47,688 nucleotides of DNA from Minisyncoccia bacterium (GTDB lineage: Bacteria; Patescibacteriota; Minisyncoccia; SW-4-49-11), in NCBI GenBank assembly GCA_044341565.1, contig JBIIRM010000008.1, positions 1 through 47,688 on the forward strand. The letters are read 5' to 3'. The position numbers and the translations under genes are program-made. The stretch's first letter is position 1. The number at the start of each line of letters is the position of its first letter. Below the pieces are notes generated by a model. The model made no database searches and had not been told where the DNA came from. It saw only the letters and a program-made list of their open reading frames with translations. Shown here one piece after another: positions 7,236 through 35,641 of this stretch.

Positions 7236-8207
7236 ATGATAGCAAGAAAAGCATATAGGATTTTACTTGTAGATGATGATGAACTAGTTCGGAGTATATA
7301 CTCAGAAAGATTAGCTCAAGAACCTGATTTTGTAATTGATACTGCAATAGATGGGGCTGATGGGCTTACTAAAATACAAGAAAATGATTATGATTTAATA
7401 TTCTCAGGAATACAAATGCCAAATCTCACAGGATTTGAATTATTTGAAAAATTACAAGGGAATGCAGAATGGATAACAATTCCATTTATAATATTTAGCC
7501 ATTTAGGAAGAATAGAAGATGTTCAAAGAGCTCATGATTTAGGTGTACAGCATTTTATTGTGAGAGGACAGGCAACCCCTAATGATATTACGCAAAAAAT
7601 TCGAGATATTCTCGTTGAAAGTGAGGAGTTGAAAATAGGAGCTATTACCCGATCACATATACTCATTGTAGAAGATGATCCAATTATACTCTCAACTTAT
7701 ATTGGACGATTTCAGGCAGAATCAAATTTTATGGTTGACTCTGCTGTGGATGGGGCAGATGCTTTAGCTAAAATCAAGCAAAATGTATATGATTTGATAT
7801 TTTCAGGAATACAAATGCCGAATCTTACAGGATTTCAATTATTCGAAGTCCTACAACAAGATGAAAAATACAAAAAAATCCCAGTAGTACTATTTAGTCA
7901 TTTAGGAAGAATAGAAGATATTGAAAATGCACATAGATTAGGGGTAAAACATGTCATTGTGAGAGGAGAAACTACCCCAAATGATGTGGTAAATAAAATA
8001 CAGGATATTCTTGATGTTAAAGATAAGAATTATAATTTGAGTATTAGTAAGAATTCTCCTGATTATGCAGAATTCATCAAGTTATTTTTTGGAGTAGATT
8101 GTGTAGAATATCAAGATATGGATACAACTCCTATTACTATTACTCTACAACAATCATCAGAACCCTATATATTTACTATAGAATTGAATTGTAAAAACCC
8201 CAAATAA
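7236..8207 (+). CDS. tandem pseudo-receiver (two CheY-like REC domains lacking the phospho-acceptor Asp)
   Basis: Two internally duplicated REC-like halves (ILLVDDDELV... and ILIVEDDPII...). Each has DLIFSGIQMPNLTGF, where canonical receivers carry ...D..MP (Asp57 replaced by Gly). The conserved Lys is Arg (IVRG). There is no output domain. Confidence 0.75.
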   Translation: MIARKAYRILLVDDDELVRSIYSERLAQEPDFVIDTAIDGADGLTKIQENDYDLIFSGIQMPNLTGFELFEKLQGNAEWITIPFIIFSHLGRIEDVQRAHDLGVQHFIVRGQATPNDITQKIRDILVESEELKIGAITRSHILIVEDDPIILSTYIGRFQAESNFMVDSAVDGADALAKIKQNVYDLIFSGIQMPNLTGFQLFEVLQQDEKYKKIPVVLFSHLGRIEDIENAHRLGVKHVIVRGETTPNDVVNKIQDILDVKDKNYNLSISKNSPDYAEFIKLFFGVDCVEYQDMDTTPITITLQQSSEPYIFTIELNCKNPK

Positions 8208-10088: not shown

Positions 10089-10410
10089 CCAAGGAGAATG
10101 GTAATCGCGCATATCCATATATATGGTGAGTGAGGAAAGTCTGGACACCTATTACTTTGTAATAAATGATAGTGGGTAATACCCACCATTGAGCTTGCTC
10201 AATCGGGATAGTATCGCAGAAACAAGACATTTGAGTATATCTCATCTAAGGTGAAAAGAGATAAACCCTATCAGGTGCAAGGCCGTGCTTTTCTGTATTG
10301 AAAAGAGTGCCGCCAAGAATATGCTGGTAACAGTATATCAAGATAAATGATTACCTATGTATATTTGCTTGCAAGTATGCATAACAGAATCCAGCTTATA
10401 TTCTTCTTGG
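10089..10410 (+). ncRNA. rnpB: RNase P RNA (bacterial type)
   Basis: The 390-nt gap is ORF-free. It contains GAGGAAAGTCTGGACACC (P4 5' strand, cf. consensus AGGAAAGUCCGGGCUCC) and ACAGAATCCAGCTTA (cf. ACAGAAnCCGGCUUA). AAGGTGAAAAGAG and GAAAAGAGTGCCGCC resemble the P10-12 elements. The 5' CCAAGGAGAAT pairs with the 3' ATTCTTCTTGG as P1. Confidence 0.75.
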
Positions 10411-10435
10411 ATAATTCTATAAACAATTACTATAT

Positions 10436-11851
10436 ATGAATAGATTCGAGTTATTATTTAGTGCTATACGAGTACCCATAGATTTTTTTGTCATTCTTTT
10501 GGCAGGAATATTATCTTATCAATTACGTATATCTGAATTTGCAATAGAGGTTCGTCCCATACCATATGATTTCAGTAGTGACTGGTATAATGGATTTGTT
10601 ATTGTATTTGCATTAGTAACCGTAATTATCCTTGCAATATCAGGAATGTATAGTGTCAGGAAAACTCCAGGAATTGTGAGCGAATTTTATCGTATTTTGA
10701 GTTCTGTATCAATCACAATTTTAATTATTATTTTATATTATTTCTTTTATTCTCGTGATTTATTCTCATCAAGATTTTTGATTATTTCCCTTTGGGCATT
10801 AGCTATTATCTTATTATTAATTGGAAGATTATTAGTACATAGCATACAGGATGCTATTGTAAGGCATTATAAATGGGGAATACATAGAGTTGTTATTATT
10901 ACAGGAGAAGATATAGCTGGTAAATTAGTACTTGATGCACTTAATACTAAAGACGGTATAGGATATCAAATAGTAGAAACACAAAAAGTATTGAATCTGA
11001 AAGGCTTAAGGCATTTAGCATTGACTAAACAAATTGACGAAGTAATTTTAGCAGATACCAAATTACCACAAGATCAATTAATTACAGTAAATTATCTGTG
11101 TGAGGAATATAAAATTGATTTTCAATATATCCCCAATATATTCGATATATATACACAGGTAGAGGTAAAAAATCTCTCAGGAGTATTATTATTTAGAGTA
11201 AAGCGTACAACCTTAGAAGGATGGGGAAGTATCTGGAAGAGATTATTCGATATTATTGTTGCTACATTAGCTATTATTATCCTCTCCCCAATTTATCTTA
11301 TTACCATTATTGCAATAAAACTTGATTCACCAGGACCAATTCTCTATAAAAGTCGTAGAGTGGGAGTAGCAAAAAAACCATTTGATGTATACAAATTCCG
11401 GAGTATGTATGAGGAATTATGTACGGATGAAGATAATGCAGAATCTATTGCCTTAGAGCAGAAAATATTAGCAGAAAAAGGTATCAAAAAAGGTCCCGTC
11501 AATAAAATTAAAGATGACCCTCGTGTTACTAAATTAGGGAAATTTATTCGTAAAACCAGTATAGATGAATTACCGCAATTCTTTAATGTACTCGTAGGAA
11601 GTATGAGTCTTGTAGGTCCTCGCCCTCATCAACCACGAGAAGTAGATAAATATAAACAACATCATAAAAAAGTACTCACAATCAAACCTGGAATAACCGG
11701 TATGGCGCAAGTTAATGGCCGCTCAGACTTGAGTTTTGAAGAAGAAGTATTATATGATACCTTTTATATAGAGAATTGGAGTATATGGCTGGATATTATT
11801 ATACTACTCAAAACGCCTTGGGCAATCATAGCTCCCCGCAAAGCTGATTAA
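10436..11851 (+). CDS. polyprenyl-phosphate sugar phosphotransferase (bacterial sugar transferase, WbaP/EPS-type)
   Basis: N-terminal multi-TM region, then the conserved C-terminal sugar transferase domain: [21 protein letters not shown]...[16 protein letters not shown]...F.VYKFRSM...[21 protein letters not shown]. Confidence 0.85.
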
Positions 11852-11911
11852 AAAATTGAGAATTATATATCAATATGATATAATAAAAATAATGTAAAAT
11901 AAATAGATATT

Positions 11912-14900
11912 ATGGGAGAATCATTTAGACAAATACCCGAAGATTATAGAGAGCCTAATGAACATGATAGAGGTTTAGAAAATGGTCAAGGACTTATAGA
12001 ATTTGTTTCTGCTTCAGTCAAAAAAAGGAATAGATTTAATAAGGAATTAGGGCCAGTCATTGGTATTACGGACACAGATAATTTGGCTAAATTAAGACGT
12101 AAACTTCAAGAAGAATTGACAATCCCACAGTTAAATGGTAATACATTAGATTTAGAAACAGTAAATTTTTTACGTAATCGTTATGGTTTTGATGCTTTAG
12201 GACAAGAAGAATATGAGGTACAGCAAAGCCAGACACAGGAAGTTGAAAATAGTGTTGAACAGTTAGCTCCAGAAGAAAAAATTAGTCTTAACTCCCTAAA
12301 TTCAGAACAAACTCAAATAGTAGAAGAGGAAACAGGAATAACTCCTGAAATACCAGCTGAGCAAGAATTGGTATCAGAAGTATTGTCACCCATACAGGAC
12401 CAACAAGATCAAATTACCCCTATTGCGGAAGAATCAATTCTTCAAAATCCTGAGCAAGTTGCTCCAAAAGAAGAATTGACTTCTGAAAATCCAGATGTAC
12501 AGGGAATGTTGGCTGAGGTCACAGCTATTGTAGAGGCGGAACAACAGGAGGAAGAAAAATTAGATGTACCTGAAGGAGGAGAAAATAAAGGAGAAGAGAC
12601 TGAAAGATTAACACAAGAAGCTCGTGAAACTATTGCTATATATCAAAAATTTGGACAAGAGCATCCTATTTTTACAAGAGATCAGGCAACGCAAGAGCGA
12701 TATCGTCAATTAGAAGCTGAAGCTTGGGGAGCTCAGAATAGACTTGCTCATATGAATGGGGGAGAAATTTTTGCTTTACCACAAAAAAGAGATATAGAAT
12801 TATCACATCCAGAAGCAAAAGACACAAAAGACTATCTGGAATCATTAGAATATGGATTTGATGAGAAGGGTAATATTATTACCATTAAACATCATAATAA
12901 AAATATAGAATTGAATCGACCTTATAGTGTGGCAAATTTGATAGATAAAGCTCGACCAGCACAAATACTTACTGATATTAATTTAGATAATATCGATACA
13001 GATCTACATCGTATAGGATATGTATTACCGGGTTTGAATCCCCAAACCCCAGACTTTATTGTGAGTACACTCAGCAAAGATGAATTTATACAAGGAGTGA
13101 TTGTTGATGATATTGTTCCCGAACAAGTAGTAACACCTGAAGCTAATCCAGAGATACAAGCTTCTAGTGTTTTATTTCCGCCCGAGCCAACGGCAGAACA
13201 ATTACCAATCACCCCAGTACCAGAAGTTAATCTTGAAGTAGAAAACTCTACGCTTGAAGTTGTGATAAGTCCAGAAATAGAACAAGCACCAATAAATCCA
13301 GATTTGGGAAGTTTATATTATCAAGAAATTCAATTATGGAATAATATTCAAGCATTAAAAGAGCGAAGAGAGCAAAAAGAAGCTAAAGAAGAAGATATTG
13401 ATACACAAATTGAAAAAGCCGAGTCAGATTATCAAAGTTTTATAAACACATTATGGGGAAGTGAATTGGGAAGACGTTTTGTCCAATTTCTTGATTTGCG
13501 TACAGAGAGTGCATATACTGAAGAGCAAAATAATAAATATGGTAGAGATAAAGGTTTATTAGAGAAAATTCGTGATAAATTCTCAAGAGAAGATGTATCA
13601 GATACAGAAGAATTAAGTCCTAAAGATCAGGAACTTAAGGCTAGAAATGAATATAATCAAGCTTTACAAGAATTAATTAGAACTGAATCAGCTATTGGAT
13701 TAGAATCAGAAATACAAACATTATTTGCAACTGAAGTACAGCGTTTGCGAGATGAAAGAATAGTACAATCTCAGGAATTACAAGAATGGGATCAAACAGG
13801 ACTTGAAAAAATAGCTAATTCAACTAAAGAAAAACTATTCAACTGGTATATTAAACATAAAAATACTATTGGTAAAGTTAATCTTGCATTATTTGCAACA
13901 AGTACAACACTAGCATTAACTGGAGCTGGACTACCTGTAGCAGGAGCATTAGAGGCTGTAAGGCGTACAATAGCATATCCTATGGCTTTTGCTTCTGGAG
14001 TATCAAGTAGAGAACTTATAAGGTCAAAATTTGAAGATGGGGATGTTAATATACTTAATATTATTAAATATAAAGGGGGAATTACTAAACTAGTAGGGGA
14101 GTCTCTACAAGGAAATTATATTCAGGAAGCTCAAGATACTGAACTTACTGCAAAACTTAGTACCCTGGAGTCTTATTATCGGCTTAATGGAGGTAAATTT
14201 ACTGAATTGTCTCAGCAAAAAGCTTATGAGTTGATATTAACTGAATTAGGGCAGAGAGTAGAAAATCAAAAAATTGATGATGTTAAACCAGATATAGAGC
14301 AACCTGAAGAGCAAGAGACTACAGCTAACACAGGATTAGATTATAATATTAATTTAAAAGATAATCCTATAGAACAAAATCCAAACTATGTTAATAGCTT
14401 ATTAGAGACAGTATCAGAAAAGCGTATTACAGAATTACAAAGACTACAAAGGAATAGAACTATTGCAAATGTAGCAGGAACAGTTGTAGCGGGATCACTA
14501 TTAGTCAATTTAGCGGCACATGCTATTAAACTTGATAAACCAGATATTGCAGATACTCCTGATAATCTGTCTGTTGGGACAAGTCCAGAGACTGCTACTC
14601 CAAATCCTACAGAAATATCTCCAGTTAAACCTGATATTCCATCTTCAGAAGGAGCTGAATCTATGAATGAGGTTGCAAAAGAAGCTACTCAGCAATTATC
14701 AACAGAACAATTACAAGATATCTCTGAATTAAGTAAGGGAGAGACTTTATGGGGAGAAATAGCTAAAAAATTAGGAGCGAATGCCAGTGAAGCCCAAATT
14801 CAACAAGGAGTAGAAACATATATGCAATCAACACAAGGTTCAGAAACTATATTTAATTTAGCAAATCAAACTGAGGGGGGAAGAGCTTTATTATCTCAAT

Positions 14901-15859
14901 GGGGGATTGATAATGCAGGAGAACTATCACAAGTATCAAAAACAGATTTATATGAATTATCTCGTCATCTAGGAGTAGGACAATTAAAGGGGTTAGATAC
15001 ATTAGATATTACTAATCTCCCTCCTCTTGATGAGGTATCAACTCCTACAGGATTAACTCCTCCTGAAAGTCCTAGTTCTGGAGTAACTCCTCCTGGACCT
15101 GGAGCCGAGTCTATTCCTCCAACTGATACTAATACTTTTGCTCGAGAAGTATCTCATACATTGCGTTTAGAGAATACCTCTCTCGATGATAATCAAGTTA
15201 AAGATATTTTGGAAGCATATCATTCCACTGAGCAGGGACGTAATTCTATGTATGAATTAATATTATCCGCTCCTGAAGGAGATACCTATTTATCTAATTT
15301 AGGTATTAAGACTATAGAAGATTTTTCAAATCTATCAGAGGATCAATTATATGAGCTTTCCCAGAGTATTGATTTAAACAAGCTTGAAGGATTTAATTTC
15401 AATAATATTATCTTATCTCGATTTGAAGATGCTCCAAACTCCATTCCATTGATAAAAGGAACCGGAGCTTTATCCCAAGTAAACCAGTATATTGATTTGT
15501 ATGCGGGAGCATTGCCATATAATTCTACTTTGGGACAAGAAGTATTAACTACATATTTGAATACCCCAGAAGGAAAAGATTGGCTATATGATGCTATTGT
15601 AAATAATCCAGATACATTAAATGGAAATCAAGGTATTCAAATTGCAAAAGAATATTTCCGACAAAAGGGTATACAACAGGGAACAGATATTGATTGGACA
15701 CTCTTAAGTGGAGATAAAAAAAATCCCACCTCAATTTTCTGGAGAGAGACCTCTTTGACAGGAGGAAGAAAAATCCCACCATTATCTACTCTTTTGAAAC
15801 CAGGTACAATGCCAGGTATCAAGAAAGCACTTGAGCAAGTATTAACATTAAAACAATAA
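11912..15859 (+). CDS. giant hypothetical protein (1315 aa): acidic, coiled-coil-rich, two central hydrophobic segments, Pro-rich linker, C-terminal HhH-like repeats
   Basis: Uninterrupted 3.9-kb ORF. It has long E/Q-rich stretches and hydrophobic segments (LALFATSTTLALTGAGLPVAGAL; IANVAGTVVAGSLLVNLAAHAI). A repeated motif reads LS..GI.....LS.VS...LYELS. I recognise no known catalytic motif. Confidence 0.65.
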   Translation: MGESFRQIPEDYREPNEHDRGLENGQGLIEFVSASVKKRNRFNKELGPVIGITDTDNLAKLRRKLQEELTIPQLNGNTLDLETVNFLRNRYGFDALGQEEYEVQQSQTQEVENSVEQLAPEEKISLNSLNSEQTQIVEEETGITPEIPAEQELVSEVLSPIQDQQDQITPIAEESILQNPEQVAPKEELTSENPDVQGMLAEVTAIVEAEQQEEEKLDVPEGGENKGEETERLTQEARETIAIYQKFGQEHPIFTRDQATQERYRQLEAEAWGAQNRLAHMNGGEIFALPQKRDIELSHPEAKDTKDYLESLEYGFDEKGNIITIKHHNKNIELNRPYSVANLIDKARPAQILTDINLDNIDTDLHRIGYVLPGLNPQTPDFIVSTLSKDEFIQGVIVDDIVPEQVVTPEANPEIQASSVLFPPEPTAEQLPITPVPEVNLEVENSTLEVVISPEIEQAPINPDLGSLYYQEIQLWNNIQALKERREQKEAKEEDIDTQIEKAESDYQSFINTLWGSELGRRFVQFLDLRTESAYTEEQNNKYGRDKGLLEKIRDKFSREDVSDTEELSPKDQELKARNEYNQALQELIRTESAIGLESEIQTLFATEVQRLRDERIVQSQELQEWDQTGLEKIANSTKEKLFNWYIKHKNTIGKVNLALFATSTTLALTGAGLPVAGALEAVRRTIAYPMAFASGVSSRELIRSKFEDGDVNILNIIKYKGGITKLVGESLQGNYIQEAQDTELTAKLSTLESYYRLNGGKFTELSQQKAYELILTELGQRVENQKIDDVKPDIEQPEEQETTANTGLDYNINLKDNPIEQNPNYVNSLLETVSEKRITELQRLQRNRTIANVAGTVVAGSLLVNLAAHAIKLDKPDIADTPDNLSVGTSPETATPNPTEISPVKPDIPSSEGAESMNEVAKEATQQLSTEQLQDISELSKGETLWGEIAKKLGANASEAQIQQGVETYMQSTQGSETIFNLANQTEGGRALLSQWGIDNAGELSQVSKTDLYELSRHLGVGQLKGLDTLDITNLPPLDEVSTPTGLTPPESPSSGVTPPGPGAESIPPTDTNTFAREVSHTLRLENTSLDDNQVKDILEAYHSTEQGRNSMYELILSAPEGDTYLSNLGIKTIEDFSNLSEDQLYELSQSIDLNKLEGFNFNNIILSRFEDAPNSIPLIKGTGALSQVNQYIDLYAGALPYNSTLGQEVLTTYLNTPEGKDWLYDAIVNNPDTLNGNQGIQIAKEYFRQKGIQQGTDIDWTLLSGDKKNPTSIFWRETSLTGGRKIPPLSTLLKPGTMPGIKKALEQVLTLKQ

Positions 15860-15860
15860 T

Positions 15861-16277
15861 ATGGCAAATCCAGAAGACAATATTATCGCATTATTAGGAC
15901 TAGAAGATTTACCTGTTGAGAATAGAGCTCAATTAGTGGATGAATTAACCCAAATTCTTGAAGTTCGTGTACTCAGTGCCGCTTATGATACATTGAGTGA
16001 AGATCAGGCAAAACATTTAGATACACTACTTAATGAGAATAATCCAGAAGTAGTCACTACCTATATTCAAGAAAATGTTCCAACTCTTAGTGATATATTT
16101 GCCAATCAAATAGAAGTATTAAAAGAGGAATTAGTACAACATAAAGAGAAAATCACCAAGAATTTGACACAAGAATTAGAACTTGAGCATAATCACGATG
16201 AAGATGATGGACATACTCATGAACATGGAGAAGATCATATTCACACAGAATCAGGTGACGAAAATCCTACAGAATAA
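15861..16277 (+). CDS. small acidic protein with His/Asp/Glu-rich C-terminus, translationally coupled to the giant ORF
   Basis: The ATG at 15861 lies 1 nt after the TAA of the upstream gene (TAATATGG). The C-terminal tail is HNHDEDDGHTHEHGEDHIHTESGDE. Confidence 0.6.
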   Translation: MANPEDNIIALLGLEDLPVENRAQLVDELTQILEVRVLSAAYDTLSEDQAKHLDTLLNENNPEVVTTYIQENVPTLSDIFANQIEVLKEELVQHKEKITKNLTQELELEHNHDEDDGHTHEHGEDHIHTESGDENPTE

Positions 16278-17384
16278 TTATCCAATTACTGGTATAGAGA
16301 ATCTAGGTTCGGGGCTTGATTTACGAGATTTTTTGGCTTCAAATGTATTGAGATAAGCATAGTGATATTTATGTACTTGTCCTTCAATAGATAATATATC
16401 TTGAATTATTGGCATATATTCTGAGGCTATGCGCTTGAGAATAGGATACATATCCTCAATAATATTGAGCCCGGTTACAATAGAGCTATAATTATAAGGA
16501 GTAAAGAATATTCCATTTGCTTTTATTAATTCTTGATTATATTCTCCTTTTGAAGCAAGAACAGGAATCCCAGCAATTAGAGCTAGGGATAGAGGATATT
16601 TATCTTCATTATTCGGAGAAATTTCTACAAATATATGAGCATTTTGAATCAGAGACTGTTCGGTATTCCCGCTTAATTCTCCTACAAAAAGCATAGTATC
16701 ATTTTGATAAGACTCACGTATAGATGGCTTTACTTTACCCAGTACAATAACAGGAAGATTCAGATTATGTTTGCGATATGCCTTTAACCATAATTCTAAA
16801 CTTTCAGAATCTCTATATTGCCCATTATGAACCAGAATATATTCTTGAGGATATAAATCTTTGAAATTATTTTGAGAATTTACAATAGAAGCAGTATCAA
16901 TTCCTGTTGGTATACTATATACTTTTGATTTAAAAGAAGCGTTTAGGAGAGTTTGTAATTCTGGATTATCTATAATCAAAGAATCAGAAAACTGAGCAGA
17001 TATATAAGAGAGTAGCATATAGCGTCGTCTATTCTTTTTGCTATTGACAAAAGTATATTGATGATAATCAAAAATAACCCTTACTTGAGGCATTTGTAAT
17101 GATACCCAAAAAGCCACCCAAGCATATTCTAGCGATCTAATATGTACAATATCAAGATTTTCTATTTTCCGGAGCTCACGAATAATGGACTTAACTTTAG
17201 GTTGACTGGGAATAATATGAATATTCTTATATTCCGTTAATTGGGTGTAATTAGGGTCTGAGAGCACATATACAGAATGTCCTCGTCTTGCCAATTGAGT
17301 CGCTACAATTTCACAATTATACTCATTTCTATCTCGAGTATTTTGATAAGGAATTCCTCTGGTACCAACAAATGCTATGACCAT
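16278..17384 (-). CDS. glycosyltransferase family 4 (GT-B fold)
   Basis: The N-terminus MVIAFVGTRGIPY is typical of GT4. The C-terminal half has the GT1/GT4 EX7E-like region. The ORF-track start at 17408 is a TTG; the ATG at 17384 is preferred. The 3' end abuts the convergent gene at 16277 with no spacer. Confidence 0.8.
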   Translation of the reverse strand: MVIAFVGTRGIPYQNTRDRNEYNCEIVATQLARRGHSVYVLSDPNYTQLTEYKNIHIIPSQPKVKSIIRELRKIENLDIVHIRSLEYAWVAFWVSLQMPQVRVIFDYHQYTFVNSKKNRRRYMLLSYISAQFSDSLIIDNPELQTLLNASFKSKVYSIPTGIDTASIVNSQNNFKDLYPQEYILVHNGQYRDSESLELWLKAYRKHNLNLPVIVLGKVKPSIRESYQNDTMLFVGELSGNTEQSLIQNAHIFVEISPNNEDKYPLSLALIAGIPVLASKGEYNQELIKANGIFFTPYNYSSIVTGLNIIEDMYPILKRIASEYMPIIQDILSIEGQVHKYHYAYLNTFEAKKSRKSSPEPRFSIPVIG

Positions 17385-17453
17385 ATGGGATATTAGTTCT
17401 ACAGACAAAAACTATAGCATAAAATAGCAGTTTTGTCAATTTCTGATATTATT

Positions 17454-17956
17454 TTTCCACCCCTTTCCCTGCTACCCCTCAATTTATCTCCCGTAGGGAG
17501 AGAGGGGAATTAGCTAAGTCCACACCCGTCGACTTTGTCGACACCCTCGCCGGCGAGGCCTGCCTGCGGTAGGCAGGGACAGTTTTATTGTCCTCCCTTG
17601 GGGGAGCTTTGGTTCCTCCTATATTTGTTTAGGAGGGGGTGCCCGTAATAGACTGAAGGTCTGGGAAAGGGGTCGGGAAAACAGAAGTTTTCCCGTGGAG
17701 GAAGGTTGGGAAACCGTGAGGTTTCACAGGAGCAAATCCCATTTGCGACGGGGGAGGGAGGATAGAGTTTAAGTTTGTATTTTATCCACCCCGTCCAGCA
17801 AAGCTGTCCACCCCTCAAGAGGGGAATATATACAATGTACTGTCCTAAAAATTCCCCTCATGGGTTGTGAGTAGATAGGAGTCAGTATATAACAAAGTGC
17901 TTTGTCCGAAAAATTCCCCTCTTGAGGGGTGCCGTCGCTAGACGGCGGGGTGGAAA
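17454..17956. repeat. GC-rich hairpin-module element, copy A (largest)
   Basis: A ~500-nt G/C-rich island in AT-rich DNA packed with perfect short palindromes: GTCGACtttGTCGAC, CTCGCCGGCGAG, GCCTGCCTGCGGTAGGCAGGG, GGACAgttttatTGTCC, CCTCCCttGGGGGAG, CCTCCTatatttgtttAGGAGG, GGGAAAACagaaGTTTTCCC, CCCCTCaagaGGGG (twice), CGCCGTCgctaGACGGCG. Its core (17663-17755) is shared with copies B and C. The termini TTTCCACCCC (17454-63) and GGGGTGGAAA (17947-56) are inverted. Confidence 0.55.
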
Positions 17957-17959
17957 GTA

Positions 17960-30061: not shown

Positions 30062-31408
30062 ATGGCAGGGAATAATTCTCTTGATTCATTTACCAAAAAT
30101 CGCAACGTAATTATTATTGCTGGTGTCGCTATATTAGCTATTGTTATATTGATGCTTGGTAATGCGCTTGGATTCAAAATTGGAGGTGAGAAAAAAGTAC
30201 AAAAAGCAAATTTGGTAGTATGGGGAGTCTGGGATGAAAGTGAGACAATGACGAAATTGGGAAGTGATTTTCGTAAAATATATCCTAATGTAAGTATAGA
30301 ATATCGTAAATTCAAGCCACAAGATTATGAGACAGAACTTATTAATGCTTTAGCTGAGGGACGAGGTCCAGATATATTGGCAATGGAGAGAACTTGGCTT
30401 GGTAAACATAAGAATAAGTTAGCCCCAATGCCAGAAGAAATTATGACACTCAAAGAGTATCAAGATACTTTTGTAGATGTGGTTAATCAAGATTTTATTG
30501 ATGAGGGTAAAATATATGGATTCTCTCTATACACCGATACTTTAGCATTATTATATAACAAAGATGCTTTTAATGATGCTGGAATTGCAAATCCACCAGT
30601 AACTTGGGAAGAATTACAAAGTATAGTACCCAAATTAACTAAAATAGATCAATTTGGTGAGATTAAACAGGCGGGAGTTGCATTAGGTACAGGAGATAAT
30701 ATAAATCGTTCACCAGATGTTTTGATGGCATTAATGTTACAGTCTGGAGCTCAATTTACTGACCCTAAAGATACTAGTAGAATTACTTTTTCTCAAAGTA
30801 AAAATGTCAATGGACAAAATATAAATCCTGCTCAATTATCTTTAGCTTATTATACCGATTTTGCTAATCCTCGAAAAGGAGTATATACCTGGAATTCAAC
30901 CTTAAATAATTCAATAGATGCTTTTTATGAAAGAGAAGTTGCTATGATATTTGGATATTCATATCAGGTAGAAGCAATTAAAGCAAAAGCCCCAAGACTT
31001 AATTTTGCAGTAGCTCCTCTCCCTCAGGTATCTACAGATTCTGGCCTTGCTAATTTTGCAAATTATTGGGGATATGGAGTAAGTGGTCAATCTAAATACC
31101 CAAAAGAAGCCTTTGCATTCCTCAAATCAGCCACTGAAAAGGAAAATGCTCAAGAGTATTTCTTGAAAACCAAGCGCCCAACAGCCAGAAGAGATTTAGT
31201 AGATACACAATCACAAGACATTGATTATGGAGTATTTGTAAAACAAATATTACAAGCTAAAACCTGGAGACAACCCGATAATAATTCAGTAGATAAAATA
31301 TTTATCAATGCTATTAATGGAGTAAATTCAGGATTACTTGACTATAGTAAAGCTATTTCGCAAGCTCAAACAGAAATACAGACATTAGCTGATAATGTGA
31401 AAAAATGA
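30062..31408 (+). CDS. extracellular solute-binding protein (ABC-type, family-1 carbohydrate-binding like) with N-terminal membrane anchor
   Basis: N-terminal TM anchor. LVVWGVWDE...Y...FEK and overall length and composition typical of SBP_bac_1. No permease or ATPase genes are adjacent. Confidence 0.7.
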   Translation: MAGNNSLDSFTKNRNVIIIAGVAILAIVILMLGNALGFKIGGEKKVQKANLVVWGVWDESETMTKLGSDFRKIYPNVSIEYRKFKPQDYETELINALAEGRGPDILAMERTWLGKHKNKLAPMPEEIMTLKEYQDTFVDVVNQDFIDEGKIYGFSLYTDTLALLYNKDAFNDAGIANPPVTWEELQSIVPKLTKIDQFGEIKQAGVALGTGDNINRSPDVLMALMLQSGAQFTDPKDTSRITFSQSKNVNGQNINPAQLSLAYYTDFANPRKGVYTWNSTLNNSIDAFYEREVAMIFGYSYQVEAIKAKAPRLNFAVAPLPQVSTDSGLANFANYWGYGVSGQSKYPKEAFAFLKSATEKENAQEYFLKTKRPTARRDLVDTQSQDIDYGVFVKQILQAKTWRQPDNNSVDKIFINAINGVNSGLLDYSKAISQAQTEIQTLADNVKK

Positions 31409-32730
31409 AATATATAAAGTTCAGTATAGTTTTTGGTATAATATTCTTAGTAGTTTCATTTTTTAGTATTAACTATACTAATGCACAGAGTGCAGATGGA
31501 GCTTGTAGTGCAGGGGCAACATCATTAGAGCAAAACTGTACTTTTCAAAATGGAAGCTCTCGTTTAAATGGAAAATGCCAGGTTAAAGATAAAAATAATC
31601 CAGGTTTAGGATTAACTTGTCGTACTAGCTTAGGATCATCCTGCTCAGGTGATACTTGTCAAAATGGATTAGCCTGTATTAATCAGGTTTGTTCCAGTCC
31701 AAGAGGGGCTAAAACTCAAGGTCAATCTTGTTCAGGGAATGGAAATGAATGTATTGCAGGTCTTGAATGTAGAAATTTTATATGTACAAAAGAAGCTGCC
31801 ATTACTGGTGGAGGGTCTGGGCAAACTGGAGGTGGTCAAGTCGGTACCCCTGGAGGCTCAACAGGGGCAGAAACAGGCCTTGTTAAATGTGGAGTGAGTC
31901 GAGATTGTACTATTTGTGATATATTTATCTTAATTCGAGATATCTTTAATTTTGCTTTAGGGCTACTAGCCTCACTCGCGGTATTAAGTGTTGTTATTGG
32001 TGGGGTCTATGTGTTGACTTCAGCAGGTAATCCTGGAGCGGTAAGTACAGGATATGGCATTATTACCAATGCAGTAATTGGACTATTACTCGTAATGGCA
32101 AGCTTTCTCTTATTTAGTTTCCTTCTTGTGGGGCTTGGATTTCAAGAACAAAATTTCTCAGCTGTACTTACTTTTCAACCAGGTAAAGTATTCGAGGTAA
32201 AATGTGATAATGCTAGTACTTTTAATGATAATGGATCAAATGGAGGAGGGTCTGCTGTACTGGGTAATGGTGGGAGTAACTCATCAACTATAAGTTGTGC
32301 GAGTTTAAATGATTCGGTTAAGGCGGATTTAAATAATGCTAGTTCTCAGACGGGTGTTCCTTCTGAACTATTGGCTGGAATTATGCAAAGAGAATGTCCT
32401 GCAGCCTTTAATAATGCTAATGCTTGTCCAAATGAAAATGGCTCTGGAGCAGCTGGAGCAGGTCAATTTTTACAAAGTAGCTGGAATGAGCTGGGATGTA
32501 GTGGAAGTAGAACGAATCGAAGAGATGCCCTTGTTTGTATGGGGAAACATTTAAAACGGTATAATAAATGTTCTAGTCAATGTAATGGATATTCTAATTT
32601 TTCATCCAGAGCTTGTTCTGATTGTGTGGCAGGAGATTATTGTGGTGCATGTTCAGGTTCATCAGCTTGTGGAGGTAATTATTGTGATGGGGTGTGGAGT
32701 AACTATCAAAAATTTAAAACATGTAAATAA
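31405..32730 (+). CDS. Cys-rich secreted protein: VirB2/TrbC-like pilin hairpin fused to a C-terminal SLT/VirB1-like lytic transglycosylase domain
   Basis: Signal peptide, then a Cys-rich module (many C.G..C spacings). Next comes a pilin-like two-helix region (GGVYVLTSAGNPGAVSTGYGIITNAVIGLLLVMASFLLF) homologous to the downstream small pilins. At the C-terminus SELLAGIMQREC...FNNANA...GSGAAGAGQFLQSSW matches the SLT signature (E-S...GLMQ). Confidence 0.65.
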   Translation: MKYIKFSIVFGIIFLVVSFFSINYTNAQSADGACSAGATSLEQNCTFQNGSSRLNGKCQVKDKNNPGLGLTCRTSLGSSCSGDTCQNGLACINQVCSSPRGAKTQGQSCSGNGNECIAGLECRNFICTKEAAITGGGSGQTGGGQVGTPGGSTGAETGLVKCGVSRDCTICDIFILIRDIFNFALGLLASLAVLSVVIGGVYVLTSAGNPGAVSTGYGIITNAVIGLLLVMASFLLFSFLLVGLGFQEQNFSAVLTFQPGKVFEVKCDNASTFNDNGSNGGGSAVLGNGGSNSSTISCASLNDSVKADLNNASSQTGVPSELLAGIMQRECPAAFNNANACPNENGSGAAGAGQFLQSSWNELGCSGSRTNRRDALVCMGKHLKRYNKCSSQCNGYSNFSSRACSDCVAGDYCGACSGSSACGGNYCDGVWSNYQKFKTCK

Positions 32731-32734
32731 TAAT

Positions 32735-33841
32735 ATGAATAAAATCTTCAGTCTATTTTTACTAATAGCATCTTTCTATTCTATTTCTCCAGTATATGCA
32801 GATACTAGTATATACTCAAGTTTCTTATATCCAAGTTTTGCTGTAAATAATGAAATTTTATATTTTGATCAATATGCAGGAGCTATTGTGAAACAAAATG
32901 TTATTACTGGTGAGAAGTCAGAGATATTTGATTTAATACCTTCTGCTACTAACTTAGTATCAATTTCTCCTGAACAATCTAAAATATTACTTTATCCTCC
33001 TAATATATCATTTCCAAAATATCAAGCACCATTTTTTGATAGTTCAAGAAAATCTCCCGATAATCAATGGTGGGTATATGATTTTAATACAACAAATAAA
33101 ATACTACTAGATGATAAAATTAATTTAGTTGGCTGGTATTCTGATAATGAAATTATATATGTATTTAATAATAAAGATATCACAGTTGCCCCAACCAATG
33201 ACCTATCTAAATTTAATATTCTATACTCTAATATACCATCTAATGTGGATATTAATAAACAAATTATAGCAAATGATAACCATCAAATAATTCCATTAGT
33301 TGATGGTTATCTTGTGGGAAATAAGAAAAACTTTGTATATCAAAAAAGTACTAATTATCAAATTTCAGCCAATCCAAAATTGAATTATTTTTTGGAATAT
33401 AATAATAGTCAGATAAAAGTTTTTGATTGGGATAGTAAGCAAGTAGGTAGTATTATTAATATCAGTAACAGGAAAGCTTTGTTACTGAATAATGATACTA
33501 TAGCTATATTGGCTACAAATGGTAATTTGATACAATATAATTTACAAGGGCAGGAGCAATCAAATGTATCATTAAATCCAATAGTTACTGATATATATTC
33601 GGTTGATCAATCTGGAAATGAACTATTAATTAATCAAAATAATCAAATACGTACTTATAATTTATTAAAAAAAGAGCAGGGAACCATCCTATTATCCACC
33701 AATACTCCTACTCCTAATACTGACACAAATTCAGAGACAGAACAATCCAACACATTAGGGAATATTGCTATTTTAATAGGAGGAATAGTATTCCTTGCTG
33801 GGGGACTGGGGCTATTTATTTGGAAATTAAGAAAAAGATGA
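32735..33841 (+). CDS. secreted repeat/beta-rich protein with C-terminal TM anchor
   Basis: The ATG at 32735 gives a signal peptide MNKIFSLFLLIASFYSISPVYA. A long N/S/Y-rich body follows. The C-terminal anchor is GNIAILIGGIVFLAGGLGLFIWKLRKR. The ORF-track start at 32585 would overlap the upstream gene. Confidence 0.6.
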   Translation: MNKIFSLFLLIASFYSISPVYADTSIYSSFLYPSFAVNNEILYFDQYAGAIVKQNVITGEKSEIFDLIPSATNLVSISPEQSKILLYPPNISFPKYQAPFFDSSRKSPDNQWWVYDFNTTNKILLDDKINLVGWYSDNEIIYVFNNKDITVAPTNDLSKFNILYSNIPSNVDINKQIIANDNHQIIPLVDGYLVGNKKNFVYQKSTNYQISANPKLNYFLEYNNSQIKVFDWDSKQVGSIINISNRKALLLNNDTIAILATNGNLIQYNLQGQEQSNVSLNPIVTDIYSVDQSGNELLINQNNQIRTYNLLKKEQGTILLSTNTPTPNTDTNSETEQSNTLGNIAILIGGIVFLAGGLGLFIWKLRKR

Positions 33842-33871
33842 TATAATTAAAAATAATTAAATACAGATACT

Positions 33872-34711
33872 ATGAAATTAATCATATCTACAGCATTTGG
33901 AATTGTCTTTGCACTAGTATTCTTTAGTAATTCTAATATAACACTTGCTCAATGTGGAAGTGGTCCAAGCTGTACAGGGAATTTTGTTTGTGTGAACGCA
34001 GATGGTACTCCTAAATGTTTGCTAAATCAGGTTAGTAATAATGGTTTATGTGAGGGCGACTCTTCTGTGAAATGTTCAGCAAATCAAGCTTGTATTCAAA
34101 ATAATGCAACAGAAATTGTATGTGCCCCTTTAGCGGGATCATCAGCTAATACAAATTTACCAGGTTCTGGAAGTACAACAACTTGTCCAACCTGTAAATC
34201 TGGTGAAACATGTATTAAGAGTGCAGCAGGACCACTCGTATGTAGATCCGCCGCTACAAATTGTACTCCTGCTTGTACAACAGGTAAGGTGTGTGTTAAA
34301 GCAACGCCAACAGCAACTACTGGAACTTGTGTAGATAATGCGCCTACTCAAGCTGCTGGAGGAGCTGGTGGTAATGGTGCTGGAGGGAATGGATCTTCAG
34401 GAGGAAGTGGTGGTGGCTTATTAGAAGGTCTCAATGCTTTTGGTAGTGCAGATTCTGGACTTAATACAGAGGGAACTCTCATTGGGTTTATTTCTAATAT
34501 TATTCGTTGGATATTAGGACTTCTTGGAACTGTGTTCTTTGTAATCATAGTTTTACAAGGGTATCTTTATATGACATCTTCAGGAGATGCGAGTAAAACA
34601 GCAGCAGCTACGGGGGCTATTACTAATGCAGTAATAGGACTACTGATTATTATGGGAGCTTTCCTCATTACTAATTTTGTGACAAGTGGTTTGATTGCCG
34701 CTGGGTCTTAA
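33872..34711 (+). CDS. Cys-rich/Gly-rich secreted protein with C-terminal VirB2/TrbC-like pilin hairpin
   Basis: Signal peptide, then Cys-rich repeats (C...C.....C), then a G/A/N-rich linker. The C-terminus IIRWILGLLGTVFFVIIVLQGYLYMTSSGDASKTAAATGAITNAVIGLLIIMGAFLI is shared with the paralogs. Confidence 0.65.
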   Translation: MKLIISTAFGIVFALVFFSNSNITLAQCGSGPSCTGNFVCVNADGTPKCLLNQVSNNGLCEGDSSVKCSANQACIQNNATEIVCAPLAGSSANTNLPGSGSTTTCPTCKSGETCIKSAAGPLVCRSAATNCTPACTTGKVCVKATPTATTGTCVDNAPTQAAGGAGGNGAGGNGSSGGSGGGLLEGLNAFGSADSGLNTEGTLIGFISNIIRWILGLLGTVFFVIIVLQGYLYMTSSGDASKTAAATGAITNAVIGLLIIMGAFLITNFVTSGLIAAGS

Positions 34712-34721
34712 TATCTTATAT

Positions 34722-35069
34722 ATGATAGAAGCATTTATATCCAATTTCATCATAGTAACAGCTAAAGCCCAGGAGACATCGCCTCCTCCTATATTAGCTA
34801 TACCTACAGGAACAGGAGTGGGGGAGCAAGGAGATCTGTTTACTTTTGTGTCAGCTATTGTGCAATGGGGATTGGGATTAATAGGGATAGTATTATTTGT
34901 ACTTATACTCTTTTCTGGATTCCAATATGCAACAGCAGGGGGCGACTCTAAAAAAACTGAAGAAGCTATTAGTAGAATTACTTCTGCAGTAATCGGAGTA
35001 TTCATTGTAGGGGTGGCTTTTATACTATCCAATGCAGTATTAGGATTTGTTTTTAGTCTAGGATCTTAA
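34722..35069 (+). CDS. small VirB2/TrbC-like pilin paralog
   Basis: Signal peptide MIEAFISNFIIVTAKAQE. ...IVQWGLGLIGIVLFVLILFSGFQYATAGGDSKKTEEAISRITSAVIGVFIVGVAF. Confidence 0.65.
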   Translation: MIEAFISNFIIVTAKAQETSPPPILAIPTGTGVGEQGDLFTFVSAIVQWGLGLIGIVLFVLILFSGFQYATAGGDSKKTEEAISRITSAVIGVFIVGVAFILSNAVLGFVFSLGS

Positions 35070-35097
35070 TATACTGACTTATCCACAATAGTATCAC

Positions 35098-35126: not shown

Positions 35127-35169
35127 AAAAACATAGAACATATTATTCAATAATTATTAAGATATTCTT

Positions 35170-35553: not shown

Positions 35554-35574
35554 TCAAATTGATAGATACTATGA

Positions 35575-35611: not shown

Positions 35612-35641
35612 GAGAATACATATTCAAATAGTATAATCTTC

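What the first reader, a model, noticed from the sequence alone, without database searches (positions are those of the whole stretch)
10436..17408. 1315-aa acidic giant protein with translationally coupled His-rich partner, sandwiched between a sugar-phosphotransferase and a GT4 glycosyltransferase
The 3.9-kb ORF encodes a highly acidic protein with E/Q-rich coiled-coil stretches, two central hydrophobic segments, a Pro-rich linker, and C-terminal repeats. The repeats (LS.LGI.T...FS.LSEDQLYELS, twice) resemble helix-hairpin-helix / RNAP alpha-CTD-like motifs. Its stop overlaps the start of a 138-aa protein with a His/Asp/Glu-rich, metal-binding-looking tail. The pair is flanked by a WbaP-type initiating sugar transferase upstream and a convergent GT4 glycosyltransferase downstream, which abuts with zero intergenic bases. 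This may be a glycosylated giant surface or envelope protein module typical of CPR 'dark matter'. I recognise no known function for it.
Basis: partly seen in the sequence, partly recalled or inferred. Interest (0 to 1): 0.5.

Follow-up and report, generated by a model that had tools for sequence, protein, structure and literature searches.

The report
Orphan mosaic giant protein with DUF5663 partner
This is a real, intact 1,315-residue gene of unknown function, found only in a small group of freshwater ultra-small (CPR/Paceibacteria) bacteria, always paired with a small conserved DUF5663 gene beside a sugar-chain-initiating enzyme, and unusual because its domains are swapped between strains while neighbouring genes stay nearly identical.

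Summary
One detail is wrong: the giant's stop and the partner's start do not overlap (TAA-T-ATG).

- **Narrow family.** A profile search of 1.84 billion representatives found 32 proteins. All placeable ones come from Paceibacteria/Parcubacteria metagenomes.
- **Architecture.** N-terminal region, Ndom (hairpin plus alpha/beta), acidic linkers and helices, Mid (two marginally hydrophobic Gly-rich helices), Pro/Ser/Thr linkers, then three ~95-aa helical repeats (R1-R3).
- **Conserved unit.** X and DUF5663 share a conserved extended -10 promoter. The pair sits directly after the glycosylphosphotransferase (PGT) even in lineages where the PGT is only 52-62% identical. TM-less "mini" forms of 376-598 aa occupy the same slot.
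- **Mosaic evolution.** X is 37-54% identical across most of its length (73-89% in R1, R3 and the ends) where flanking genes are 95-99% identical. Module types are reshuffled among 26 alleles.

Best guess (about 0.4): a non-enzymatic, membrane-associated scaffold working with DUF5663 beside PGT-initiated envelope glycan synthesis. A surface-exposed or glycosylated reading is not excluded. The HhH/alpha-CTD and metal-binding ideas are not supported.

The parts
10436..11851 (+). Large polyprenyl-phosphate glycosylphosphotransferase (PGT; Bac_transf with a CoA_binding_3-like domain). It is the conserved upstream neighbour of X.
   Evidence: PF02397 at 1.1e-66 and PF13727 at 1.2e-8. TIGR03025 EPS_sugtrans scores 391.6, above the 295.55 cutoff, but the protein is below the WbaP and WcaJ cutoffs. 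It lies directly upstream of X in the window clade and in L013, L015/16, L017 and L027, where the PGT is 52-62% identical.
11856..11884 (+). Promoter-like site (TTGAGA-17-TATAAT with an extended -10 TG) in the 60-nt PGT-X spacer.
   Evidence: It matches 11 of 12 consensus positions. An extended -10 (TGnTAnAAT) about 35-40 nt before the X start is present in the spacer of the window, L003-L011, L013, L015 and L017. Function is inferred, not shown.
11912..15859 (+). Gene X: an orphan 1315-aa acidic modular protein (coordinates include the stop codon).
   Evidence: ORF. The family has 7 homologues among 5.8 billion clusters and 32 among 1.84 billion representatives. The gene is intact in all loci. 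There is no Pfam, NCBIfam, PHROG, PADLOC or PDB match.
11912..12211 (+). X N-terminal region, aa 1-100. It begins MGESF and is conserved in only some alleles.
   Evidence: Identity to the window is 89% in L011 but 34% in L001. Against L001, dN is 0.75 and dS is 0.88.
12593..13117 (+). X Ndom, aa 228-402. This family-defining domain is a long alpha-hairpin followed by an alpha/beta subdomain of about 105 residues.
13637..14530 (+). X Mid module, aa 576-873. It is helical and carries hydrophobic helix H1 (aa 656-674, nt 13877-13933), a conserved segment of about 150 aa with the motif YYRLNGG, and hydrophobic helix H2 (aa 851-872, nt 14462-14527).
   Evidence: Own HMM. Kyte-Doolittle scores are 1.33-1.72. 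Simple Hessa sums are +3.5 and +4.0, against -4.6 to +1.0 for the best-scoring hydrophobic segments of four membrane or exported proteins in the same window. Flank charges in 16 sequences: H1 N-flank 53 K/R and 1 D/E, C-flank 32 and 10; H2 N-flank 93 and 31, C-flank 22 and 45. AlphaFold confidence is low here.
14531..14713 (+). Pro/Ser/Thr-rich acidic linker 1, aa 874-934.
   Evidence: 36% P+S+T, pI 4.05. pLDDT is below 50.
14714..15007 (+). R1, aa 935-1032: first copy of the ~95-aa all-helical R domain (motif L-x-x-G-E-T-L-W ... T-E-G-G ... L-S-x-x-Q-L-Y-E-L-S).
   Evidence: R1 against R2 scores z=13.4. pLDDT is 75-87. It is the least variable module, with 2 types among 26 alleles.
15008..15124 (+). 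Pro/Ser/Thr-rich linker 2, aa 1033-1071.
   Evidence: 56% P+S+T.
15125..15406 (+). R2, aa 1072-1165: second R-domain copy. It is optional in the family.
   Evidence: It is absent from P0001/L001 and P0009/L011. It falls into 8 sequence types among the alleles.
15407..15856 (+). R3, aa 1166-1315: a degenerate R-type core plus a conserved basic C-terminal tail. It is family-defining and the only non-acidic module (pI 8.1).
   Evidence: pLDDT is 83-95. R2 against R3 scores z=6.1. Invariant C-terminal residues are listed. pI comes. It is present in the mini forms.
15861..16277 (+). DUF5663 partner, 138 aa, pI 4.3, with a lineage-specific His-rich tail at aa 110-128 (nt 16188-16244).
   Evidence: PF18908 scores 30.3 bits, above the 23.7 cutoff. 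A search found 73 clusters at 47-100% identity, nearly all at 61% or more, with a highly conserved core at aa 1-105; the His tail occurs only in the five closest. It lies directly downstream of X in all window-clade loci and in L012, L013, L014, L017, L027 and L028.
16278..17408 (-). Convergent GT4-family glycosyltransferase. A promoter-like site lies at 17439-17411 (-).
   Evidence: PF13439 scores 40.7, above the 28.5 cutoff. Promoter-like site. It neighbours X only in the window clade and, in a different arrangement, in L015.

Best explanation
Gene X encodes an orphan, lineage-restricted, non-enzymatic modular scaffold or adaptor protein. X and the small acidic DUF5663 protein form a two-gene unit with its own promoter. 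That unit is genetically coupled to the polyprenyl-phosphate glycosylphosphotransferase (PGT) that starts envelope glycan synthesis.

Shown:
- The family core is Ndom plus the C-terminal R3 module.
- Giant forms add an N-terminal region, acidic and Pro-rich disordered linkers, helical segments, a Mid module with two marginally hydrophobic Gly-rich helices, and extra R copies.
- Modules are exchanged between alleles by recombination. Structured modules remain under purifying selection.

Inferred:
- X is held at the cytoplasmic face of the membrane by the Mid helices, which may be re-entrant or marginal transmembrane segments.
- X binds DUF5663. The only non-acidic module, the R3 tail, is the obvious candidate site.
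- X organises, localises or regulates PGT-initiated glycan assembly through protein-protein contacts.

Whether R1-R3 stay inside the cell or are displayed outside in the giant forms is unresolved.
For: 1. **Real and constrained.** The gene is intact in every relative. Against L001, dN/dS in the structured modules is 0.22-0.37, below 1.
2. **Conserved partnership beyond general synteny.** PGT-X-DUF5663 recurs in L013, L017 and L027. PGT-X recurs in L015/16. X-DUF5663 recurs in L012, L014 and L028. In L013, L015, L017 and L027 the PGT is 52-62% identical to the window's; X is 19-25% identical in L012-L015, L017 and L028, and the downstream (in L015/16 also upstream) genes differ. In L015 the mini X sits inside a glycan cluster: PGT, X, a sub-threshold Wzz-like gene, Wzy_C and GT4.
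3. **Own transcription unit.** A conserved extended -10 lies in the PGT-X spacer across lineages. The X-to-DUF5663 spacing is 1 nt in the window.
5. **Cytoplasmic core.**
   - There is no signal peptide.
   - The orthologous mini forms P0023, P0026 and P0035 lack any hydrophobic segment yet keep Ndom and the R modules.
   - H1 and H2 are much less hydrophobic than the best-scoring hydrophobic segments of four membrane or exported proteins in the same window.
   - Both flanks of H1 are basic.
6. **Modular build.** Architecture and optional modules are shown. R3 has pI 8.1 and DUF5663 has pI 4.3.
Against: - No interaction, localisation or phenotype is known. Everything functional rests on gene neighbourhood and composition.
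- X has its own promoter, so adjacency to the PGT need not mean co-regulation.
- L014 has X-DUF5663 without an adjacent PGT.
- DUF5663 occurs alone in an unrelated high-GC contig.
- Extreme allelic divergence next to 95-99% identical neighbours is more typical of exposed or conflict proteins than of housekeeping scaffolds.
- H2 has a textbook positive-inside pattern: 93 K/R before it and 22 after, in 16 sequences. P/S/T-rich stalks follow it, and the protein is Cys-free. These features favour an exported C-terminus.
- Some alleles carry a Pfam Ltp domain, which is normally extracytoplasmic.
Confidence: 0.4

Rival explanations
1. X is a membrane-anchored surface protein. The N-terminal ~850 aa stay in the cytoplasm, H1 is re-entrant, and H2 is the single transmembrane anchor. 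R1-R2-R3 are displayed outside on Pro/Ser/Thr stalks, which may be O-glycosylated using the glycan started by the neighbouring PGT and GT4. The protein would act as an adhesin or variable antigen under diversifying selection from hosts or phages.
For: - H2 shows a positive-inside pattern, and both H1 flanks are basic.
- The linkers after H2 and between R1 and R2 are 36-56% P+S+T.
- There are 0 Cys in 1315 aa, and 0-2 in other giants.
- Alleles are mosaic and deeply diverged beside near-identical neighbours.
- P0034 combines an R domain with DxDGDG-type acidic repeats.
- An Ltp domain is present in P0010 and P0013.
- Glycan genes are adjacent.
Against: - There is no signal peptide.
- H2 scores +4.0 on a simple Hessa sum, against -4.6 to +1.0 for the best-scoring hydrophobic segments of four membrane or exported proteins in the same window.
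- The orthologous mini forms in the same slot have no hydrophobic segment. This includes P0035 in L015, the locus with Wzy_C, which also has no P/S/T stalk. Their R modules are therefore cytoplasmic.
- Divergence is not concentrated in the putatively exposed part. R1 is the least variable module, and the N-terminal region and Ndom are among the most variable.
- No Wzy_C/O-oligosaccharyltransferase was found among the ten other window ORFs scanned, and no flippase was identified.
- dN/dS is below 1.
Confidence: 0.3
2. X-DUF5663 has a function unrelated to glycan synthesis. One candidate is a polar-landmark or cytoskeletal hub, comparable to HubP, FimV or PodJ. Under this reading, the position next to the PGT is only inherited gene order in a small clade.
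For: - X has its own conserved promoter.
- L014 lacks an adjacent PGT.
- The window-clade synteny extends over many housekeeping genes: FtsK, enolase, RecJ, Fmt, Def and PriA.
- The architecture is giant, acidic, disordered, helical and membrane-associated.
Against: - PGT-X adjacency survives where other synteny has decayed, in L013, L015/16 and L027.
- In L015 the mini X is embedded in a glycan cluster.
- There is no LysM, FimV, TPR or other hub-family domain.
Confidence: 0.15
3. X-DUF5663 is a conflict module, such as a phage-exclusion, toxin-antitoxin-like or self/non-self system. Its fast, mosaic evolution would reflect an arms race.
For: - Allelic divergence is extreme and modules are shuffled.
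- An Ltp (superinfection-exclusion-type) domain is inserted in some alleles.
- A source database names some DUF5663 proteins 'SdhE/CptB antitoxin', and there is a weak Sdh5 hit.
Against: - PADLOC and PHROGs give no hits.
- hhalign of DUF5663 against SdhE gives probability 14% over a 32-aa motif only, and no RGxxE motif is present.
- The gene is fixed at one housekeeping locus in every genome examined, rather than sporadically present.
- No relatives were found in viral contigs.
- There are no DGR-type repeats.
Confidence: 0.08

Closest known systems
Giant acidic, modular, membrane-anchored hub/scaffold proteins (HubP, FimV, PodJ). The comparison rests on my own knowledge of those proteins.
   Same: All are very large and strongly acidic. 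All have long disordered Pro/Glu-rich linkers and coiled or helical segments, a membrane-associating element in mid-protein, small globular interaction modules at the ends, and no catalytic domain. All evolve fast outside the globular modules.
   Different: There is no sequence or fold relationship. X has no LysM, FimV C-terminal, TPR/Sel1 or peptidoglycan-binding domain. X is tied to a PGT and to DUF5663. X's hydrophobic helices are marginal.
Accessory proteins of Wzy-type glycan pathways that act on or next to the initiating PGT: polysaccharide co-polymerase plus BY-kinase (Wzc, CpsC/CpsD). The comparison rests on my own knowledge.
   Same: The gene lies next to the initiating PGT. The protein has two hydrophobic segments flanking a helical region. 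It has large cytoplasmic parts with a presumed regulatory or scaffolding role.
   Different: X has no Wzz domain and no P-loop kinase hit. In L015 a separate, sub-threshold Wzz-like gene coexists with mini X. Mini forms have no membrane segments at all.
Mosaic, recombining envelope proteins, for example Wolbachia wsp (PMC2843615, abstract seen), and hypervariable large-protein modules in conserved contexts, for example the Thermococcales Ig-domain module (PMC8416519, abstract seen).
   Same: One gene is far more diverged than its neighbours. Discrete sequence types per segment are recombined in different combinations. The position in the genome is conserved.
   Different: For X, exposure is unproven. 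Divergence is not concentrated in the candidate exposed part. dN/dS is below 1. The protein families are unrelated.
S-layer or pilin O-glycosylation clusters, in which the acceptor protein is encoded beside a WbaP-like PGT, glycosyltransferases and a Wzy_C-type O-oligosaccharyltransferase. The comparison rests on my own knowledge.
   Same: A large acidic Cys-free protein with Ser/Thr/Pro-rich stretches is encoded between a PGT and a GT4. The L015 relative also has a Wzy_C gene.
   Different: X has no signal peptide. No Wzy_C was found among the ten other window ORFs scanned. The X in the Wzy_C-containing locus is a cytoplasmic mini form without S/T/P linkers.

Membership tests
DUF5663 (PF18908), for the 138-aa partner | Score at or above the Pfam gathering threshold for the DUF5663 profile | tested here: met
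   30.3 bits, above the 23.7 cutoff, covering profile positions 2-83 of 84. All 73 relatives are precomputed as PF18908.
Polyprenyl glycosylphosphotransferase, EPS_sugtrans subfamily (TIGR03025 / PF02397), for the upstream gene | Full-length match above the curated cutoff | tested here: met
   TIGR03025 scores 391.6, above the 295.55 cutoff. PF02397 scores 224 bits.
WbaP / WcaJ in the strict sense (TIGR03022, TIGR03023) | Score above the subfamily (TIGR03022) or equivalog (TIGR03023) cutoff | tested here: not met
   290.1 is below 403, and 339.4 is below 410.75. The sugar specificity is therefore unknown.
GT4 glycosyltransferase, for the downstream gene | Glyco_transf_4 N-terminal domain plus Glycos_transf_1 C-terminal domain | tested here: met
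   PF13439 scores 40.7, above the 28.5 cutoff. PF00534 scores 25.1, just under its 26.4 cutoff.
Helix-hairpin-helix / RNAP alpha-CTD-like domain, for the R repeats | Profile similarity to HhH or alpha-CTD, with the GhG hairpin motif | tested here: not met
No HhH Pfam hit appeared in 35 members at E<=1. There is no PDB sequence hit. A fold-level test of R alone was not possible.
LysM, for the N-terminal 'GETLWGEIAKKLG' motif of R1 | Match to the LysM profile (beta-alpha-alpha-beta) | tested here: not met
   No LysM hit in any of 35 members at E<=1.
Polysaccharide co-polymerase (Wzz, PF02706) | Wzz domain, with two true transmembrane helices flanking a periplasmic helical domain | tested here: not met
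   No Wzz hit for X. Its hydrophobic helices are marginal. A separate Wzz-like gene (23.2 bits, below the 25.5 cutoff) coexists with mini X in L015.
Sec-exported surface protein | N-terminal signal peptide or a strongly hydrophobic signal anchor | tested here: not met
   The N-terminus, MGESFRQIPEDYREPNE..., is acidic with no hydrophobic core. The only hydrophobic segments are at aa 656 and 851 and are weak. No dedicated predictor was available.
SdhE / Sdh5 (CptB antitoxin), for DUF5663 | Sdh5 profile above threshold, with the RGxxE motif | tested here: not met
   PF03937 scores 16.8, below the 27 cutoff. DUF5663 has no RGxxE motif.
Target of a diversity-generating retroelement | Template/variable repeat pair with adenine-specific mismatches, near a reverse transcriptase | tested here: not met
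   No direct repeat of 40 nt or more involves the X gene anywhere in the 47.7-kb window. Divergence is protein-wide, not confined to one variable region.
Known anti-phage defence systems (PADLOC) and phage protein families (PHROGs, BFVD) | Significant profile or fold match | tested here: not met
   PADLOC gave no hits. PHROGs gave none for X. The best Foldseek BFVD hit has E=0.023 and TM<=0.1. No relatives were found in viral contigs.

The most novel reading that the evidence does not exclude
X, DUF5663 and the PGT would form a previously unrecognised three-part envelope module of Paceibacteria.
- X is a recombination-shuffled modular protein built from at least two domain folds with no match among solved (PDB) structures (Ndom and the R domain).
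- Together with a universally conserved small partner, X couples the initiation of a surface glycan to a strain-specific, exchangeable set of interaction modules.
- The effect would be a protein-level 'serotype' system. It would determine how these ultra-small cells present or localise their glycan, or attach to partners, and it would be maintained as ancient alleles by frequency-dependent selection.
Probability: 0.25. Interest if true: 0.7.

Novelty: new variant of a known kind. Interest (0 to 1): 0.5.

Why it matters
CPR/Patescibacteria genomes are small, yet they spend 4 kb on this gene. They keep it intact and let its modules recombine while the flanking housekeeping genes stay at 95-99% identity. 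That pattern marks a protein at some biological interface, whether envelope, partner cell or phage.

The consistent pairing gives the first functional context for the Pfam family DUF5663. It also gives a concrete, testable candidate accessory factor for large PGTs in organisms that lack the usual co-polymerase and kinase regulators.

Ndom and the R domain are candidate new folds. If the C-terminal array is exposed, X would be a strain-typing marker and a candidate attachment determinant for freshwater Paceibacteria. If not, it is an unusual case of deep allelic mosaicism in a cytoplasmic scaffold.

Tried and rejected
**Searches on X that found nothing**
- Pfam, NCBIfam, PHROGs and PADLOC on X gave nothing above noise. 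The TUG-UBL1 and AmcB hits at E about 0.02-0.035 were dismissed.
- PDB sequence searches with profiles of X (A2), DUF5663 (A4) and the R domain (A6) gave nothing below E=0.05.
- Foldseek of the 1091-residue model against PDB found only long-helix noise, with E>=3.8.
- Foldseek of the same model against BFVD found tape-measure-like helical noise, with E>=0.02 and TM<=0.1.
- The afdb50 library was not installed.
- The search for homologous proteins with the Ndom alignment (A5) returned no hit at all, although family members are in that database. I treat this as a sensitivity artefact, not evidence.

**Ideas tested and not supported**
- Repeats resembling RNAP alpha-CTD or HhH: hhalign probability 0.1%.
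- DUF5663 related to SdhE: hhalign probability 14%.
- LysM-like start of R1: no hit.
- DGR-driven variation: no repeats involving X.
- Phage-borne copies: none found.
- X as a polysaccharide co-polymerase: no Wzz domain, and a separate Wzz-like gene exists in L015.
- His-rich tail as a family feature: it is present only in the five closest relatives.
- P0032 as evidence for a single transmembrane helix between Ndom and R1: it is a frameshifted gene in a low-quality contig, and its 'TM' scores +7.2.
- P0036, a eukaryote-like PLAT-repeat protein at E=1.8e-4: treated as spurious.

Full report
**1. The observation**

The ORF map matches the finding:
- PGT at 10436-11851 (+).
- A 1315-aa ORF at 11912-15859 (+).
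- A 138-aa ORF at 15861-16277 (+).
- A convergent 376-aa ORF at 16278-17408 (-).

The junction reads ...CAA TAA T ATG.... The giant's stop and the partner's start are therefore separated by one base and do not overlap. The partner's TAA ends at 16277 and the GT4 stop (TTA on the plus strand) begins at 16278, so there are zero intergenic bases.

The giant has these properties:
- It is acidic, with pI 4.49, 11.4% E and 7.1% Q.
- It has no Cys, where about 10 are expected from the window's other ORFs.
- It has two hydrophobic stretches, aa 656-674 and 851-872.
- It has two Pro/Ser/Thr-rich linkers.
- It has a significant internal repeat. R1 against R2 scores z=13.4, and R2 against part of R3 scores z=6.1.

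The flanking enzymes were checked against curated models:
- The upstream enzyme is a large polyprenyl glycosylphosphotransferase. It scores above the TIGR03025 cutoff but below the WbaP and WcaJ cutoffs.
- The downstream enzyme is GT4-type.
- The partner is a member of Pfam DUF5663.
- An RNase P RNA lies at 10089-10414, just upstream of the PGT.

**2. How widespread it is**

A word-indexed search of 5.8 billion protein clusters found 7 homologues at 36-64% identity, all 1268-1458 aa. A full HMMER profile search of 1.84 billion representatives found 32 proteins. About half are fragments and about ten are distant.

A scan of GTDB species representatives gave 8 loci. All are MAGs labelled Paceibacteria, Parcubacteria or Minisyncoccia, apart from one labelled only 'uncultured bacterium' and one labelled Saccharibacteria. 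Several are from freshwater lake series. The ORF is intact in every locus, at 1180-1890 aa where complete. X is therefore a real gene belonging to a narrow CPR clade.

**3. Architecture**

HMMs built from slices of the alignment define the following order:
- A variable N-terminal region.
- Ndom (aa 228-402).
- A variable acidic, Pro-rich and helical segment.
- Mid (aa 576-873, containing both hydrophobic helices and a conserved YYRLNGG segment).
- A P/S/T linker.
- R1, a second linker, R2 (optional) and R3.

AlphaFold was run on aa 225-1315 with 35 sequences. Confidence by region was:
- Ndom above 90.
- R1 75-87.
- R2 76-88.
- R3 83-95.
- Linkers and the region around both hydrophobic helices below 50.

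Ndom modelled alone gave pLDDT 87 and pTM 0.80. It consists of a 25+24-residue alpha-hairpin followed by an alpha/beta subdomain. The R domains are all-helical bundles of 6-7 short helices, closed by a beta-bridge between their ends.

Every module is acidic except R3, which has pI 8.1.

Some alleles (P0010, P0013) carry one or two Pfam Ltp domains between Ndom and Mid, at E about 1e-13.

Distant relatives show that the family core is Ndom plus R3, with or without R1:
- P0023 (474 aa) and P0026 (598 aa) are Ndom-R1-R3.
- P0035 (376 aa) is Ndom-R3.
- All three lack any hydrophobic segment.

**4. No known relative**

No significant hit was found in any of these searches:
- Pfam, NCBIfam, PHROGs and PADLOC.
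- Profile searches of PDB sequences.
- Foldseek against PDB and against BFVD.

Three limits apply:
- R1 and R3 could not be searched as isolated domains.
- The AFDB libraries were unavailable.

**5. Genomic context**

In the window's clade the whole neighbourhood is syntenic: response regulator, RecJ, RNase P RNA, PGT, X, DUF5663, GT4 (convergent), Fmt, Def. By itself that says little about functional linkage.

The informative cases are the distant lineages, whose PGT (where one is present) is only 52-62% identical to the window's:

| Locus | Gene order |
|---|---|
| L013 | PGT, mini X, DUF5663, MnmA |
| L017 | (FtsK to RecJ), PGT, X, DUF5663, MnmA |
| L027 | PGT, X (1737 aa), DUF5663, HAD hydrolase |
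| L015/16 | ABC transporter, PGT, mini X, Wzz-like (23.2 bits, sub-threshold), Wzy_C, GT4, DUF218 |
| L014 | X, DUF5663, RNase J, with no adjacent PGT |
| L012 | X, DUF5663 |
| L028 | Two tandem X copies, then DUF5663 |

A metagenome scan seeded with DUF5663 returned 9 loci:
- Eight have X immediately upstream.
- The ninth, a high-GC contig with type III CRISPR-Cas-like genes, has DUF5663 alone.

The PGT-X spacer carries a conserved extended -10 element about 35-40 nt before the X start in all lineages examined. X-DUF5663 therefore looks like its own bicistronic unit, parked directly after the PGT.

**6. Evolution**

X diverges far faster than its neighbours. In L011 the flanking proteins are 95-99% identical to the window's. 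X is 89% identical over its first 100 aa and 77-100% over the last ~120 aa. Ndom and Mid are about 47-54% identical, R1 and R3 are 73-76%, and the inter-module regions are much lower or unalignable. These sharp boundaries indicate allele replacement by recombination.

Per-module identities to the window vary independently:

| Module | L001 | L011 |
|---|---|---|
| N-terminal 100 aa | 34% | 89% |
| Ndom | 81% | 47% |
| Mid | 89% | 54% |

I clustered each module at 65% identity across 26 alleles. The same Ndom type is combined with four different Mid types, the same Mid type with three Ndom types, and so on. This is a four-gamete-style signature of module shuffling.

Between the window and L001:
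- Neighbouring genes have dS 0.27-0.45 and dN/dS 0.05-0.16.
- X modules have dS ranging from 0.13 (Mid) to 0.88 (N-terminal region), and dN/dS of 0.22-0.37.

The structured modules are thus under purifying but relaxed selection. The uneven dS again indicates mosaic ancestry. No DGR-like repeats exist, and no copies were found in viral contigs.

DUF5663, in contrast, is 47-100% identical over 73 clusters (nearly all at 61% or more), with an almost invariant core. The His-rich tail is confined to the five closest relatives.

**7. Topology (unresolved)**

Evidence for an exposed C-terminus:
- In 16 family members, the 15 residues before H2 hold 93 K/R and the 15 after hold 22. Both H1 flanks are basic: 53 K/R and 1 D/E before, 32 and 10 after. 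This fits N-in, H1 re-entrant, H2 spanning, C-out.
- P/S/T-rich stalks follow H2.
- The protein has no Cys.

Evidence for an entirely cytoplasmic or peripheral protein:
- There is no signal peptide.
- H1 and H2 give simple Hessa sums of +3.5 and +4.0 (family range +2.5 to +4.7). The best-scoring hydrophobic segments of the same window's PGT, RND pump, pilin-like protein and solute-binding-protein anchor give -4.6 to +1.0.
- The orthologous mini forms keep Ndom and the R modules with no membrane segment at all.

A plain two-TM hairpin with an external loop is the least likely option, because three of the four flanks contradict the positive-inside rule. I put the cytoplasmic or monotopic reading at about 45%, C-terminus-out at about 35%, and the two-TM loop-out reading at about 15%.

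**8. Interpretation**

Shown:
- X is a constrained, orphan, modular, non-catalytic-looking protein.
- It has a conserved operon-like pairing with DUF5663.
- It is repeatedly placed just after a PGT across deep divergence.
- Its evolution is recombinational and mosaic.

Inferred: X is a scaffold or adaptor acting with DUF5663 at the membrane, next to PGT-initiated glycan assembly (confidence about 0.4). The basic R3 tail is a candidate contact for the acidic DUF5663.

Rivals:
- An anchored, possibly glycosylated surface protein or variable antigen (about 0.3).
- A hub protein unrelated to glycan synthesis (about 0.15).
- A conflict module (about 0.08).

X works most like the giant acidic hub proteins (HubP, FimV, PodJ) or like PGT-adjacent accessory proteins (Wzc, CpsCD). 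It is a member of none of these, since every defining feature I could test was absent.

**9. Novelty and score**

X is a new protein family with no detectable relative. It gives the first consistent genomic context for DUF5663. Orphan giant proteins are common in CPR genomes, and fast-evolving large envelope-associated genes next to glycan loci are a known phenomenon. I therefore rate it a new variant of a known kind rather than categorically new, with interest 0.5.

The more novel reading is a PGT-coupled, module-shuffling 'protein serotype' system built on new folds. It keeps a probability of about 0.25.

Noticed in passing
window 17409-17959: This is a 550-nt spacer between the GT4 start and the fmt stop. 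Its G+C is about 42%, against about 33% for the region. It is packed with short GC-rich palindromes, for example cctgcctgcggtaggcaggg and gccgtcgctagacggcgg. No Rfam family matches. The spacer length varies from 63 to 417 nt among relatives. It may be a REP- or MITE-like insertion.
   Followed up: partly
window 17704-17757, 38606-38659, 47257-47310: A 54-nt repeat (GGTTGGGAAACCGTGAGGTTTCACAGGAGCAAATCCCATTTGCGACGGGGGAGG) occurs three times at 69-100% identity. The first copy lies in the GC-rich spacer above. It could be a dispersed repeat element or a small-RNA family.
   Followed up: no
window 10089-10414 (+): Bacterial class A RNase P RNA (140 bits) lies between recJ and the PGT. In the relatives L003 and L017 a gap of about 400 nt between recJ and the PGT occupies the same position.
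   Followed up: no
window 31405-36556 (+): This is a cluster of genes with T4SS_pilin-like (PF18895) C-terminal domains: 31405-32730 and 33872-34711, plus related small ORFs. Their shared segments form repeat families D1 and D3.
   Followed up: no
window 7236-8207 (+): The 323-aa response regulator is an internal tandem duplication of two receiver domains. The 299-nt direct repeat at 7319-7617 and 7718-8016 is 74% identical. No output domain was evident from reading the translation; this was not checked with a domain search.
   Followed up: no
P0010 aa 603-653; P0013 aa ~400-501 (homologues of X): Some X alleles carry one or two Pfam Lipoprotein_Ltp domains (E about 1e-13 to 1e-12) inserted between Ndom and Mid. 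This domain type is known from a phage superinfection-exclusion lipoprotein. It shows that the variable region accepts foreign modules.
   Followed up: partly
L026 6770-7138: A DUF5663 homologue (about 50% identical) stands alone, with no X gene. It sits in a high-G+C contig next to what look like type III CRISPR-Cas (Cas10/RAMP-like) genes. DUF5663 is therefore not restricted to CPR or to the X partnership.
   Followed up: partly
L028 1-4031: One distant lineage has two X-family genes in tandem. The upstream copy ends with R1...R3. The second copy is P0032 plus a frameshifted R3 piece. A DUF5663 reading frame follows, interrupted by stops. This is either a low-quality assembly or a decaying copy.
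   Followed up: partly
(tool behaviour): The alignment-based homologous-protein search with the Ndom alignment returned zero hits, although known family members are in that database. This null result should not be read as absence.
   Followed up: no
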